A DNA stretch of 64,000 nt, from the NCBI GenBank assembly GCA_030038355.1, contig JASHPB010000071.1, positions 6,550 through 70,549 of the forward strand. The letters run 5' to 3'. The translations under genes were made by a program, and so were the position numbers. This stretch comes from Candidatus Binataceae bacterium. Lineage in GTDB: Bacteria; Desulfobacterota; Binatia; Binatales; Binataceae. The notes beneath the pieces were generated by a model. It was not told the DNA's origin. It searched no databases and worked only from the letters and a program-made list of their open reading frames with translations. This document shows, piece after piece, positions 9,472 through 11,784 of the stretch (position 1 is its first letter; each line of letters begins with the position of its first letter).

Positions 9472-10710
9472 ATGGCAAGTGCAGAGCGGCCGACTCCGGC
9501 GGCGCCGTTCGACCCAATGATGGGACGGCTCGAACTGATCGAGCCCGGCATCGCAATGTTTCACGGCTTCGCTAACGTCGCGTTCGCGTACGGCCGCGGC
9601 GAGATGCTCGCGGTGGACACCAGCTCGCGCACGATGGGCGCGATGGCGGTCAAAGCTATCCGCGAAATAACCGACGAGCCGTTCGCGTTTCTGATCTACA
9701 CTCATGGCCACGGCGATCACGCGTTTGGCACCGACGCGTTCCTCGAGGACGCCTTGTCGCACGGCTTCCGCCGTCCGAAAATCTGGGCGCATGAGGACGT
9801 GAGCGGCCGCTTTCATCGCTACGCGATGACACGCGGTTGGCAGTCGCACATCAACCAGCTTCAGTTCGGCGCACGTGCGCCAGTCGACGGAATCTTCGAC
9901 GAAAAATCGTTCCGCTATGCCGACCTCGCGTACCGCGACTACCAGACGCTCGAGCTAGTGGGCGAAGCCGTCGAGCTGCATCACGCGCGCGGCGAAACCG
10001 ACGATGCCACCTGGGTCTGGATGCCAACGCGGCGGACCGCGATGGTCGGTGACCTGATCGTTTCGTCGATGCCGAACACCGGCAACCCGAATAAGGTGCA
10101 ACGCTTCACGCTCGGATGGGCTGAGGCCCTGGAAGCGATCGCGCGCAAGAAGCCGCGCTACGTGCTTCCCGGGCATGGCCCCGCATATCGCGGCGAGGAC
10201 GCGTGCCAGGAGCTTCTTCTCGAGACGGCGCGCGCGCTCAGGTTCATCCACGATGAAGTGGTGCGACGCCTCAACGCCGGCCAGTGGCCGGTCGAAATCG
10301 TCGAGGCGAATATCGAACTGCCCGCCGATCTTGCGGCGCAGCCGTTTCTTGCACCGATCTACGGATGCGTTCCATTCGTCGTGCGCGATGTCATCCGCTA
10401 CTACGCGGGATGGTGGTCAGGGGAGCCGTCCGCGATGTTTCCCGCAACGCGTCGCGATCGCGCGGCGGACGTCATCGCCTTGTGCGGGCGCGATGCAGTC
10501 CTCGCGCGGGCGCGAGCGCTCCGCGATGAAGGCGAATTGCAGCGTGCGCTCGCGCTGGCTGAGACGGAGCTGAATGCCGACGTTAGCGATCGCGAGGCGA
10601 TGGATCTCAACGCCGACATTTTGGAGAAGCTCGCGGCGCGCGAGCGCTCGTTTATCGCGCGCAACTTCTTCTCGGGCGCAGCGCGCGCACTTCGTGAAGG
10701 TCTGAAGTGA
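9472..10710 (+). CDS. MBL-fold hydrolase, alkyl/aryl sulfatase-like with dimerization domain
   Basis: THGHGDH, GETDD, PNTGNP, LPGHG and YYAGWW motifs. Confidence 0.88.
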   Translation: MASAERPTPAAPFDPMMGRLELIEPGIAMFHGFANVAFAYGRGEMLAVDTSSRTMGAMAVKAIREITDEPFAFLIYTHGHGDHAFGTDAFLEDALSHGFRRPKIWAHEDVSGRFHRYAMTRGWQSHINQLQFGARAPVDGIFDEKSFRYADLAYRDYQTLELVGEAVELHHARGETDDATWVWMPTRRTAMVGDLIVSSMPNTGNPNKVQRFTLGWAEALEAIARKKPRYVLPGHGPAYRGEDACQELLLETARALRFIHDEVVRRLNAGQWPVEIVEANIELPADLAAQPFLAPIYGCVPFVVRDVIRYYAGWWSGEPSAMFPATRRDRAADVIALCGRDAVLARARALRDEGELQRALALAETELNADVSDREAMDLNADILEKLAARERSFIARNFFSGAARALREGLK

Positions 10711-10830
10711 TCGCCCGATATCGCGACTCTCTTCGAGTCATTCCGAGCCAAAGGCGCCAGCAAGGCGAGGAGGAATGATCGCGGGGCGATATTCTGCGGC
10801 GCGCGGGGCTTTTGCGGCTCCTATTCAATT

Positions 10831-11156
10831 GCGGTGTCGACCGCAGCGGCCTTGTAGCAGCTTCACTCACCAGTGCCTCAGATTCCTCGCAGCATAGGCA
10901 GTCCCTTCGACGACCGCTTTGGGGAGTCTCGCCCACGGTGTTCACGCCCTTACTTGTTGATGCCGGAACCGCGTCTTGCGACCCGTCCCACGATCCCGTT
11001 CGAGTCACCGCTCAACACCGGGCGAGGGCCTCTTAGATTCGAGCACTTCGCCTCATGGCCGCTGACGCGCACCTCTCCCCGAACTGGTCGCTCAACCTCT
11101 ATCCCGCTAGATACTGCTGAGTGAAGGTCAGACAAGGCCGCTGCCGCCAACACTGC
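10831..11156 (-). ncRNA. Candidate large structured ncRNA or non-autonomous mobile element
   Basis: At least six nested inverted-repeat pairs spanning the whole intergenic element; mismatches mostly resolve as G-U on the minus strand; GUC-GCAA-GAC tetraloop; no credible ORF. Confidence 0.55.
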
Positions 11157-11205
11157 GGACGTAGTGCGCAACGAAATGCTCACGTGCCACCCAGAGCAGT
11201 ATCAA

Positions 11206-11784
11206 TTATGGTTTCGCTGGACGTTGTGATGGATCCTTTTTCTTGCGCGGCGAGCGCTTGCGCGGCATCGCCGGCTTGAGCGCACCGTCAACGACGCCCC
11301 CCTGCAACGCGACGACGGTGATGGGAGGCCGCGGCTTTCGAATCGACGCAACGACGTCGGCCAGCTCGATCGCGGGATTGCTGCGCGCACCGGCACTATC
11401 GATTTCGATCTCGCGCCCGATATCACTCAGCGAAATCAAGCCCGCAAGCTTGCCCGCCTCGTCAACCACGGGCAGCCGATGGACTTTCGCCTCGCGCATC
11501 AGCTTGAGCGCGAATGAAACCGAGTCATCCGGCCCGCACGTGACCACCTTCTTGCTCATTACTGGTTCGATCGCGATATCGAACAGCGGCCGACCCTGCG
11601 TGTAAGTTGCCATCGCGAGGTCGCGATCGGTGACAACGCCTACCACGCGCGTTTCTTCATCAACGATCGGAACGCACCCGCAGTCGTTCTCCCACATGAT
11701 CTGCGCCGCGTCATTGATCGAACCCGCAATCGGGCACGACTTGACCGCAGCCGTCATTACTTCTGAAACCTTGCTCTGATTCAC
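11206..11784 (-). CDS. CBS domain pair protein with basic C-terminal tail
   Basis: VMT...MWENDCGCVPIVD...GVVTDRD and HRLPVVD...GLISLSD; GAGGAGG RBS with GTG start. Confidence 0.9.
   Translation of the reverse strand: MNQSKVSEVMTAAVKSCPIAGSINDAAQIMWENDCGCVPIVDEETRVVGVVTDRDLAMATYTQGRPLFDIAIEPVMSKKVVTCGPDDSVSFALKLMREAKVHRLPVVDEAGKLAGLISLSDIGREIEIDSAGARSNPAIELADVVASIRKPRPPITVVALQGGVVDGALKPAMPRKRSPRKKKDPSQRPAKP

What the first reader, a model, noticed from the sequence alone, without database searches (positions are those of the whole stretch)
10843..11144. Alternative reading: transposase-less IS110/IS1111-like element carrying only a guide (bridge/seek) RNA
Seen: both ends read GCAGCGGCCT-TGT-N5-CTTCACTCA(C/G)CAGT inward, i.e. 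a 14-bp sub-terminal inverted repeat set back from a palindromic flank. Removing the interior leaves a REP-like hairpin. The interior contains CAGCGGCC (11057-11064, minus), identical to 8 nt of both flanks. Established: IS1111-group elements have sub-terminal IRs, often insert into palindromes, and encode a ncRNA whose loops match the target. Inference: a non-autonomous RNA-only derivative mobilised in trans. An 8-nt match in GC-rich DNA could be chance.
Basis: inference. Interest (0 to 1): 0.7.

Follow-up and report, generated by a model that had tools for sequence, protein, structure and literature searches.

The report
Decayed IS110 element: bridge RNA only
This 300-bp stretch is the worn-down left end of an IS110-type jumping gene that still carries its guide ("bridge") RNA, aimed at a repeat scattered through this soil bacterium's genome, but it has lost its transposase gene and right end, so it looks like a fossil, not a working mobile element.

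Summary
The inverted repeat is real and longer than reported: 44 nt, 80%.

**What the interior is.** On the minus strand it is homologous to the 5' non-coding, bridge-RNA region of IS110-family insertion sequences. An HMM built only from 8 such regions of other elements hits it at E=4e-12, one of 3 hits genome-wide. Full-length relatives in metagenomes show left end, bridge RNA, a 418-aa DEDD transposase and right end.

**What the guides target.** The window copy's guide segments spell CAGCGGCC(T)+TAGATT. That is the consensus of a ~16-copy repeat family ("R") whose cores form the flanks.

**What is missing.** There is no transposase and no right end. The second internal copy (C145) runs into a transposase gene at a contig edge.

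**What the repeat arms are.** They are two inverted "R core + left end" junctions, not IS1111 sub-terminal repeats. The left arm is a 24-nt left-end fragment sitting exactly at the programmed core.

**Verdict.** The IS1111 assignment and mobilisation in trans are not supported. This is a new member of a known kind, of moderate interest.

The parts
10738..10779 (+). Hairpin-type repeat H (GTCATTCC...GGAATGA), left arm of repeat copy R_L
   Evidence: Alignment of R-family copies. The same hairpin flanks many R copies.
10780..10852 (+). Body and core of repeat copy R_L, ending with the core dinucleotide CT (10851-10852). This is the left target of the plus-strand junction.
   Evidence: The R consensus is CGCAGCGGCC-T-TAGATTCC.
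10853..10878 (+). 24-nt fragment of an IS110-type left end (LE', 10853-10876) plus a second CT (10877-10878). It is a 26-bp insert exactly at the core of R_L.
   Evidence: Core CT plus 24 nt matches the left ends of full-length relatives L053 and L052 at 22/26, and the right arm at 19/26. Similarity stops after nt 26. The R consensus resumes at 10879.
10879..10893 (+). First half of R_L's right hairpin H (CAGATTCCTCGCAGC), which is the right target of R_L. It ends at the deletion junction with the minus-strand relic.
   Evidence: Compared by eye with the R consensus TAGATTCCTCGCGCAGC.
10890..10895 (-). ATG CTG, the first two codons of the lost transposase gene. They overlap the junction through the microhomology CAGC.
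   Evidence: Alignment with L052-L054, which read ATGCTGGTGG... and continue into a 418-aa DEDD transposase.
10896..10919 (-). 3' tail of the non-coding region with a ribosome-binding-site-like GAAGGGAC
   Evidence: Alignments.
10920..11088 (-). Bridge-RNA body, holding the target-binding and donor-binding loops
   Evidence: An independent HMM of 8 IS110 non-coding regions gives E=4.3e-12. The covariance model R1 scores it 123 bits, but the window copy was in that model's training set.
11056..11064 (-). Left target guide, CAGCGGCCA
   Evidence: It matches its own left flank CAGCGGCCT at 8/9, while the best match to the flanks of 14 other elements is 6/9.
11040..11055 (-). Apical hairpin of the target-binding loop
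   Evidence: Alignments A3/A4.
11032..11039 (-). Right target guide, AATCTA plus AG
   Evidence: Its reverse complement is CT+TAGATT, which matches the R consensus right of the core 6/6. The register was validated on 8 elements whose right ends were seen.
10991..11001 (-). Left donor guide, GAACGGGATCG. The family consensus is GAACGGTATC, matching right ends that read ...CACGGTAT|CT.
   Evidence: Read by eye. The window has G where the family has T.
10953..10962 (-). Right donor guide, CATCAACAAG. It pairs discontiguously with the left-end start CTTGT-ATG.
   Evidence: Read by eye. The pairing pattern is as described in passages of PMC11208160.
11089..11134 (-). Left-end terminus (TGTCTGACCTTCACTC...) and 5' stem-loop of the bridge RNA
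   Evidence: Core CT plus 24 nt matches the left end of L069 at 22/26 and of L053 at 21/26. Over 36 nt it matches L053 and L052 at 28/36.
11135..11136 (-). Core dinucleotide CT (AG on the plus strand) at the junction of left target and left end
   Evidence: All relatives read ...|CT|TGTAT.. at this junction.
11137..11205 (-). Core and body of the inverted repeat copy R_R, the left target of the relic

Best explanation
The stretch is a decayed insertion of an IS110-group insertion sequence, the type with a DEDD transposase and a 5' bridge RNA. It lies between two inverted copies of a REP-like repeat family that I call R.

**Right-hand unit, read on the minus strand.** The order is R core, then CT, then the left end with the 5' stem-loop, then a bridge RNA with both guide loops, then a ribosome-binding site, then ATG CTG. 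There the element breaks off. The transposase gene, the right end and part of the neighbouring hairpin were removed by one deletion of about 1.3 kb, with the microhomology CAGC at the junction. This deletion is inferred.

**Left-hand 'arm'.** This is a second junction of the same kind in the opposite orientation. It is R core, CT, only the first 24 nt of a left end, CT, and then the normal continuation of the repeat.

**Target specificity.** The bridge RNA's target loop is programmed for the R consensus CAGCGGC-CT-TAGATT. This IS lineage therefore homed to R repeats, as Pseudomonas IS110 members home to REPs.

**Present state.** The copy has no transposase and no right end. It also has a mutated -10 box (TATGAC to TCTGAC), a 4-nt deletion in the stem at the base of the target loop, and a changed donor guide. 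It is most likely an immobile and probably silent fossil; the 'silent' part is inferred.
For: **Homology to the IS110 non-coding region**
- An nhmmer profile was built only from the 300 nt before the ATG of 8 IS110-family elements, and did not include the window. Over the whole genome (10.1 Mb, both strands) it hits 3 places at E<=1: C282 (in the training set), the window at 11160-10923 minus (E=4.3e-12), and C145 (E=0.0063).
- The covariance model finds 39 matches in 27 of 151 genomes of the family.
- Of the 30 loci fetched, 26 have transposase homology starting about 27-30 nt after the RNA.
- The family RNA structure holds on 32 sequences: 91.8% of cells paired, 19 of 31 pairs with compensatory change, 0 of 500 shuffles reaching that value, and slid controls at 50% or less. 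That alignment was fitted to the model.

**Full-length relatives**
- L052 and L054 have a left end, the RNA, a 418-aa transposase, and a right end reading TTGAC-N-CACGGTAT|CT.

**Guide matches**
- Left target guide against own left flank averages 6.67/9, against 4.33/9 for other elements' flanks. 0 of 10,000 permutations reach this (15 elements). The window scores 8/9.
- Right target guide against own right flank averages 4.25/6, against 1.73/6 for others. 0 of 10,000 permutations reach this (8 elements).
- The window's two guides give CAGCGGCC(T)TAGATT, which the consensus of 16 R copies contains 15/15.

**Absence of transposase and right end**
- tblastn with two transposases finds nothing on contig C117.
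- No right-end motif with 2 or fewer mismatches lies in 10650-11350.

**Identity of the left arm**
- It matches left ends of full-length relatives at 22/26, and similarity stops at nt 26.

**Insertion is lineage-specific**
- The orthologous intergenic region of G001 lacks everything. Its flanking genes are 91% and 86% identical at the protein level.

**Other relics in the same genome**
- C159 holds a 5'-truncated, frameshifted transposase 3' part with a right end.
- The C145 copy runs into a transposase N-terminus at its contig start.
Against: - The genome is a 93%-complete, 349-contig assembly, so an intact partner element could be unassembled. A related full-length copy does occur in one metagenome run that also holds this locus (X4 record 13).
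- The order of events (two insertions, then two deletions) is inferred, not shown. The G001 comparison gives no exact junctions because the intergenic DNA does not align.
- The donor-guide reading rests on inspection by eye, not on a statistic.
- The R1 model scores for the window copy are by construction, because it was in the training set.
- 'Silent' rests only on a consensus promoter scan (0 sites) and on one base change in a promoter inferred by analogy. No RNA data exist.
- The A at the last guide position (CCA against CCT) also occurs in L080, which has a transposase. Not every departure from a perfect match is therefore decay.
Confidence: 0.85

Rival explanations
1. It is an active non-autonomous element: a bridge-RNA-only MITE that a resident IS110-family recombinase excises and inserts in trans, and which brings its own guide.
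For: - A precedent exists in print. MITEPpu9/ssr9 of Pseudomonas putida is a small-RNA-only module with ISPpu9-like ends that forms minicircles (PMC12288879; abstract and passages read).
- Transposase-less copies of the RNA recur. 4 of 30 loci have no transposase within 1.2-1.5 kb. Two of those four are in unpublished genomes.
- The target guides are intact and match about 16 potential sites.
- Relatives with a transposase exist in the genome (C282, C145, C159).
Against: - Only one copy of this form is in the genome.
- It has no right end and no second CT-bounded junction on the RNA's 3' side. The recombinase's donor needs both ends.
- The other transposase-less loci keep the ATG and about 12-15 codons and then break off at different points. 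That is the pattern of random deletions, not of a defined module.
- The copies seen in this genome are themselves damaged. C282 has an in-frame TAG, C159 is truncated and frameshifted, and C145 has a 13-nt deletion in its target loop.
- No joints were seen in contigs of 4 runs.
Confidence: 0.07
2. It is a domesticated or stand-alone small RNA gene, for example a bridge RNA kept to steer a recombinase encoded elsewhere, or recruited for regulation of the neighbouring genes.
For: - The RNA body is the best-preserved part of the relic.
- The same arrangement is present at 99% identity or more in contigs from 4 runs of 4 studies.
- Transposase loss with RNA retention recurs in relatives.
Against: - It is absent from the orthologous locus of the sister species G001.
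- The bridge-RNA model finds no match at all in the other species of the genus, G002.
- No promoter-like or terminator-like site was found.
- The stem at the base of the target loop is lost.
- It lies between the 3' ends of two convergent genes.
- Its 74% identity to the C145 copy shows no sign of constraint beyond family-conserved blocks.
Confidence: 0.05
3. It is an IS1111-group derivative whose 14-bp repeats are true sub-terminal inverted repeats.
For: - The repeat CTTCACTCA(C/G)CAGT is 13/14 identical between the arms.
- With the 7-bp/3-bp terminal extensions quoted for IS1111 (PMC11187229, passages), the reconstructed empty site reads GGCCTT|AGA, like R copies.
Against: - The full-length relatives of this very subfamily (L052, L054, L069) have the non-coding region upstream of tnp, and a right end (…CACGGTATCT) unrelated to the inverted left end.
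- The left arm stops being left-end-like after 24 nt and is followed by the R repeat's own continuation.
Confidence: 0.02

Closest known systems
IS110-group insertion sequences with bridge RNA (IS621; Durrant et al. 2024, PMC11208160, passages read)
   Same: - The non-coding left end upstream of a DEDD transposase encodes an RNA with a 5' stem-loop and two guide-bearing loops.
- The left target guide has the sequence of the left flank plus the core. The right target guide is complementary to the core plus the right flank.
- The donor guides match the element's ends, and the right donor guide pairs discontiguously.
- A CT core lies at both junctions, and a -35 box sits in the right end.
   Different: The window copy has no transposase and no right end. 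The stem at the base of its target loop is deleted. The right target guide is 6+2 nt here, against the 4-base right target guide given for IS621 in the passages read. Sequence similarity to IS621 was not tested, and Rfam 15 gave no hit on this copy or on a full relative.
MITEPpu9 / ssr9 of Pseudomonas putida KT2440 (PMC12288879, abstract and passages read)
   Same: It is a small-RNA-bearing, transposase-less unit derived from an IS110-family element that sits in REP-type repeats.
   Different: - MITEPpu9 has both IS-like end boxes, 8 copies, and detected minicircles.
- Its RNA (Ssr9) is not needed for transposition.
- Here the RNA is the guide itself, there is one copy, and one end is missing.
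REP-targeting IS110/IS1111 members (ISPpu9, ISPpu10, ISPa11; PMC12288879 and PMC11187229 passages; the ISPpu10 preprint seen only as a listing and abstract)
   Same: It inserts specifically into a multi-copy palindromic intergenic repeat, so the flanks look like a split hairpin.
   Different: The host is different (uncultured Binatia). The repeat is different too: about 170 nt, a body and core framed by dRS3-like hairpins.
IS1111 group (sub-terminal inverted repeats; Siddiquee et al. 2024, PMC11187229, passages read)
   Same: The same transposase superfamily, an RNA guide, and an inverted repeat set back from the ends as seen in the window.
   Different: The defining features were tested and not met (see the membership test).

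Membership tests
IS110-group IS (DEDD transposase + 5' bridge RNA) | DEDD/RuvC-like plus Tnp-domain transposase gene | tested here: not met
   tblastn with the L054 and C282 transposases gives no hit on contig C117. Only ATG CTG remains. Relatives L052 and L054 encode 418 aa.
IS110-group IS (DEDD transposase + 5' bridge RNA) | Non-coding left end homologous to the region upstream of IS110 transposase genes | tested here: met
   The independent nhmmer profile gives E=4.3e-12, one of 3 hits in the genome. 26 of 30 model hits in relatives are followed by a transposase.
IS110-group IS (DEDD transposase + 5' bridge RNA) | Conserved RNA fold with two guide-bearing loops | tested here: inconclusive
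   The family fold is supported (19 of 31 pairs compensatory, 0 of 500 shuffles). The window copy keeps the donor-loop helices but lacks the 4-bp stem at the base of the target loop.
IS110-group IS (DEDD transposase + 5' bridge RNA) | Target guides match the flanks around a shared core dinucleotide | tested here: met
   Left guide 8/9 against its own flank. The right guide predicts TAGATT, which matches the R consensus 6/6. The element's own right flank is missing.
IS110-group IS (DEDD transposase + 5' bridge RNA) | Donor guides match the element's own ends, and a right end with a -35 box is present | tested here: not met
   No right-end motif with 2 or fewer mismatches lies in 10650-11350. 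By eye, the right donor guide matches the left-end start with 1 mismatch. The left donor guide differs from the family right end by one base.
IS1111 group | Sub-terminal inverted repeats of 11-13 bp with 7-bp and 3-bp extensions at the ends of the full element (as quoted in PMC11187229) | tested here: not met
   By eye, the left and right ends of full-length relatives are unrelated. The window's repeat is two left-end copies.
IS1111 group | Long non-coding region downstream of tnp | tested here: not met
   It lies upstream of tnp in all 26 loci that have a transposase.
MITE / non-autonomous mobilisable derivative | Several copies with the same two ends at different sites, with empty sites in relatives | tested here: not met
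   One copy of this form exists. The second internal copy, C145, continues into a transposase gene. G001 lacks the whole region but gives no exact junction.
MITE / non-autonomous mobilisable derivative | Excision or circle junctions | not testable with these tools
   Only assembled contigs of 4 runs could be laid, and they showed no joints. Contigs cannot show rare forms.

The most novel reading that the evidence does not exclude
The 26-bp unit at 10853-10878 is the first 24 nt of a left end plus CT. It sits exactly at the bridge-RNA-specified core of the neighbouring inverted repeat, with the core on both sides. It may be a product of the recombinase itself. One possibility is a footprint left when a right end recombined with a right-end-like site 24 nt inside the left end; the right-hand copy reads GCAGTAT|CT there, against the right end's ACGGTAT|CT. 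The other is a minimal hitchhiker bounded by two donor half-sites. Either would mean that bridge recombinases leave or move very short donor-derived scars in nature, and that bridge-RNA-bearing relics mark where this happened.
Probability: 0.1. Interest if true: 0.65.

Novelty: new member of a known kind. Interest (0 to 1): 0.38.

Why it matters
- It shows that a guide RNA of the IS110 bridge-recombinase type can be recognised, and its target read off, in a transposase-less fragment from an uncultured soil lineage (Binatia).
- The guides identify a multi-copy repeat as the natural homing site. This adds a natural guide-target pair and a set of related full-length elements with 6+2-nt right target guides.
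- For annotation, such 'MITE-like' palindromic intergenic units can be relics of RNA-guided insertion sequences.
- It does not change what is known about the mechanism.

Tried and rejected
- **Rfam 15.** Nothing relevant on the element, nor on a full IS110 locus or C145.
- **tRNA/tmRNA.** None.
- **Coding reading.** The two copies share an open frame but are only 50% identical at the protein level against 74% at the DNA level, with similar values in other frames. Rejected.
- **Genome contigs pattern scan.** Two chance hits inside genes.
- **DNA search of 61 relatives.** It found only short flank-motif matches. One hit, L010, is a coding coincidence.
- **C282 motif.** CTGCGGAGTGAAGG near C282 resembles the repeat arm, but it has the wrong orientation and is within chance (about 45 genome hits at 2 or fewer mismatches).
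- **Homology of the flanks of the window and C145 copies beyond the RNA.** Not significant (49 of 500 and 183 of 500 shuffles).
- **Predicted right end ACGGGATCT with a -35 box.** None in the genome.
- **Target-site count.** At 3 or fewer mismatches, 128 sites, no more than for shuffled targets. Only the 4 sites at 1 or fewer mismatches, all R copies, are informative.
- **Left-end pattern search in 151 genomes at 3 or fewer mismatches.** Mostly chance by its own reversed-pattern control. One 2-mismatch fragment in G240 without RNA or transposase cannot be told from chance.
- **Sequencing runs.** No RNA holder listed.
- **Parts of the stretch without contig cover in some runs.** These carry no meaning.
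- **Complex prediction, structure prediction and protein searches.** Not used, because no protein is encoded.

Full report
**Observation.** The repeat finder extends the inverted repeat to 10831-10874 / 11113-11156 (44 nt, 80%). It also reports the internal matches to the flanks: 11054-11064 against 10844-10854, and 11054-11068 against 11133-11147. The unit lies between the 3' ends of two convergent genes. One is a metallo-beta-lactamase/alkyl-sulfatase-like ORF (9472-10710, plus strand). The other is a CBS-domain ORF (11206-11784, minus strand).

**First tests.**
- Rfam gave nothing, and ARAGORN gave nothing.
- In the window's own genome (G000; 349 contigs, 93% complete) the whole unit is single-copy. 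The interior has one diverged relative at the start of contig C145 (74% over 134 nt).
- A coding reading was rejected.

**The flanks belong to a repeat family.**
- GCGGTGTCGGCCGCAGCGGCCTT is the core of a repeat of about 170 nt, which I call R. I collected 16 copies apart from the two in the window.
- An R copy consists of a body and this core. It is commonly framed by a hairpin repeat, GTCATTCCGAGCG...CGAGGAATC on the left and AGATTCCTCGCGCAGCGCTCGGAATGAC on the right.
- Earlier notes of this scan (e1-924132, e1-1087652) call such hairpins in Binatia dRS3/NTS-like 'Ssn-type' repeats. I did not test that link.
- The window holds one R copy on the plus strand (R_L, 10738-10852 and onward) and one inverted (R_R, about 11137-11205).
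- The sister species G001 has the two flanking genes (91% and 86% protein identity) but only about 130 nt of unrelated DNA between them. The whole R + element region is therefore lineage-specific, but no exact junction can be read.

**The interior is an IS110 bridge-RNA region.**
- G000 has IS110-family genes. A weak local similarity of the interior's minus strand to the DNA just upstream of the C282 transposase led me to collect relatives of that transposase in 201 genomes of the class and to align their upstream regions.
- An nhmmer profile of the 300 nt before the start codon of 8 such elements, without the window, was run over the whole genome. It gave three hits at E<=1: C282 itself, the window at 11160-10923 minus (46.5 bits, E=4.3e-12), and C145 (E=0.0063). 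This is the independent test of homology. It also fixes the sense strand as minus.
- A metagenome pattern scan then found three closer relatives (L052-L054). L052 and L054 are full-length: left flank, CT, TGTATGA(C/T)CTTCACTC..., the RNA region, ATG CTG GTG..., a 418-aa DEDD transposase, and a right end CTTGAC(A/C)AC(T/G)ATCACGGTAT|CT|. L053 ends 60 codons into the transposase at its contig edge.
- The same alignment shows that the C145 copy continues into a diverged transposase N-terminus and is simply cut by the contig start. It is therefore not RNA-only.
- A covariance model (R1, built from 10 sequences including the window) found 39 matches in 27 of 151 genomes of the family.
- Of the 30 loci fetched, 26 have transposase homology beginning about 27-30 nt after the RNA. 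In one of these only the first 86 aa remain, several are frameshifted, and one has only 107 nt of room. Four have none within 1.2-1.5 kb. Two of those four, and one of the 26, are in genomes flagged as unpublished.
- On 32 aligned sequences the family fold has 91.8% of cells paired, 19 of 31 pairs with compensatory change, and 0 of 500 shuffles as high. Slid controls reach 50% or less. That alignment was fitted to the model. An independent RNAalifold run on 10 sequences gave 12 of 35 pairs with compensatory change.

**Guides.** By position the RNA follows the bridge-RNA plan described for IS621, which is a 5' stem-loop followed by a target-binding and a donor-binding loop (passages of PMC11208160).
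- *Left target guide.* The 9 nt before the apical hairpin of the first loop match each element's own left flank plus core: mean 6.67/9 against 4.33/9 for other elements' flanks, with 0 of 10,000 permutations as high (15 elements). The window scores 8/9 (CAGCGGCCA against CAGCGGCCT), and its best cross score is 6.
- *Right target guide.* The 6 nt before the conserved AG on the 3' side predict the right flank: 4.25/6 own against 1.73/6 cross, with 0 of 10,000 permutations as high (8 elements whose right end was seen).
- *The window's target.* Its right guide AATCTA+AG predicts CT+TAGATT. Together the two guides give CAGCGGCC(T)TAGATT, and the column consensus of the 16 R copies, CGCAGCGGCCTTAGATTCCTCGCG, contains it 15/15. 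Individual copies score 8-14/15. The four genome sites within one mismatch are all R copies.
- *Donor guides, read by eye.* GAACGGTATC in the second loop equals the right end ...CACGGTAT|CT. This right end was seen in C282/L038, L040, L047, L052, L054 and C159. CAT-NN-ACAAG is the discontiguous complement of the left-end start CTTGT-ATG.

**What the window copy lacks.**
- No transposase homology lies on its contig, and no right-end motif with 2 or fewer mismatches lies nearby.
- After ATG CTG (10895-10890, minus strand) the sequence is the first half of R_L's right hairpin, with CAGC shared at the junction.
- Relative to full-length relatives, the window has C for A in the left-end hexamer. 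By analogy with IS621 that hexamer should be the -10 box of the circle-junction promoter; this is an inference from PMC11208160 passages.
- It also has a 4-nt deletion that removes the 3' strand of the stem at the base of the target loop, and G for T in the left donor guide.
- A consensus scan finds no promoter or terminator.

**The left arm.** From the core CT at 10851-10852, the next 24 nt match the left ends of L053 and L052 (22/26 including the core), better than they match the right arm (19/26). Similarity ends at nt 26. A second CT follows, and then CAGATTCCTCGCAGC, which is R's own continuation. R_L is thus an R copy with a 26-bp insert exactly at the programmed core. By eye, full-length relatives have no terminal inverted repeat, and their non-coding region is upstream of tnp.

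**History (inferred).** Elements of this lineage inserted, guided by their RNA, into both inverted R cores. One was later cut down to 24 nt. The other lost the transposase gene, the right end and half a hairpin in a deletion of about 1.3 kb. Other relics of the same subfamily in the genome fit a decaying population. These are C159, a truncated and frameshifted transposase 3' part 90% identical to L054 plus a right end, and C145. Transposase-less copies in relatives keep the ATG and about 12-15 codons and then break off at different points.

**Population data.** Contigs from 4 runs of 4 studies carry the same arrangement at 99% identity or more. X9 record 20 spans 10814-11167 with 1 difference, and X4 record 14 spans 10915-11203. 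No joints were reported. One run also holds a related copy that runs into a transposase N-terminus. Contigs cannot show rare excised forms.

**Literature.**
- Bridge/seek RNAs of IS110/IS1111 are established (PMC11208160 and PMC11187229; passages read).
- An RNA-only, IS110-derived MITE is described (MITEPpu9/ssr9, PMC12288879; abstract and passages read).
- My searches and passages of one preprint on non-coding RNA mapping turned up no description of transposase-less relics that keep the bridge RNA. That is three word searches, not proof of absence. bioRxiv supplements were not available.

**Verdict.** The IS1111 assignment and mobility in trans are not supported. It is a new member of a known kind, with one odd detail worth a bench test: the 26-bp left-end fragment at the programmed core.

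Noticed in passing
G000 contigs C16, C33, C65, C119, C131, C155, C171, C221 (2 copies), C229, C252 (with a near-identical copy on C310), C287, C291, C300, C304, C69; window 10738-10852 and about 11137-11205: A repeat family of about 170 nt ('R'). It has a body with the core GTGTCGGCCGCAGCGGCC and is usually framed by GTCATTCC...GGAATGAC hairpins. Some copies instead begin with a terminator-like hairpin plus a T-run. Its nature (REP/BIME-like, or an Ssn-type mosaic as earlier notes suggest) was not worked out.
   Followed up: partly
G000:C83:5154-5176: Two R halves lie head-to-head and share one palindromic core with nothing between them. This is a natural 'empty' palindromic arrangement of the repeat.
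   Followed up: no
G000:C282:1494-2990 (L014/L038/L063): An IS110-family element of a second subfamily (52% transposase identity to L054). It has an in-frame TAG at codon 25, no recognisable CTTGTAT left-end terminus, and a right flank that fits its right target guide only 3/6.
   Followed up: partly
G000:C159:3587-4121: A 5'-truncated, frameshifted 3' part of a transposase gene, 90% identical to that of metagenome relative L054. It is followed by an intact-looking right end ...CACGGTAT|CT|AATCGG.
   Followed up: partly
L039 and L049 (G132:C4), about 480 nt upstream of the transposase ATG: A right end (TTGACG...ACGGTATCT) is followed after 11 nt by the left end of the next copy. G132-type elements also have a left end about 200 nt longer before the bridge-RNA body. 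This looks like tandem copies or a junction-like arrangement.
   Followed up: no
L094 (G240:C12:77756-77774): A 19-nt left-end-like fragment, 18/19 identical to the window's left arm, with no bridge RNA or transposase nearby. It lies between GGCCGGC palindromes. It cannot be told from chance.
   Followed up: partly
window 11111-11119 and 11196-11204: GATACTGCT and its reverse complement form a further 9-nt inverted repeat that spans the right junction. It may be chance.
   Followed up: no
L080 and L079 (G020, G186): Their left target guide ends in CA where the flank has CT, as in the window. The A opposite the core T may therefore be a tolerated or preferred variant, not decay.
   Followed up: no
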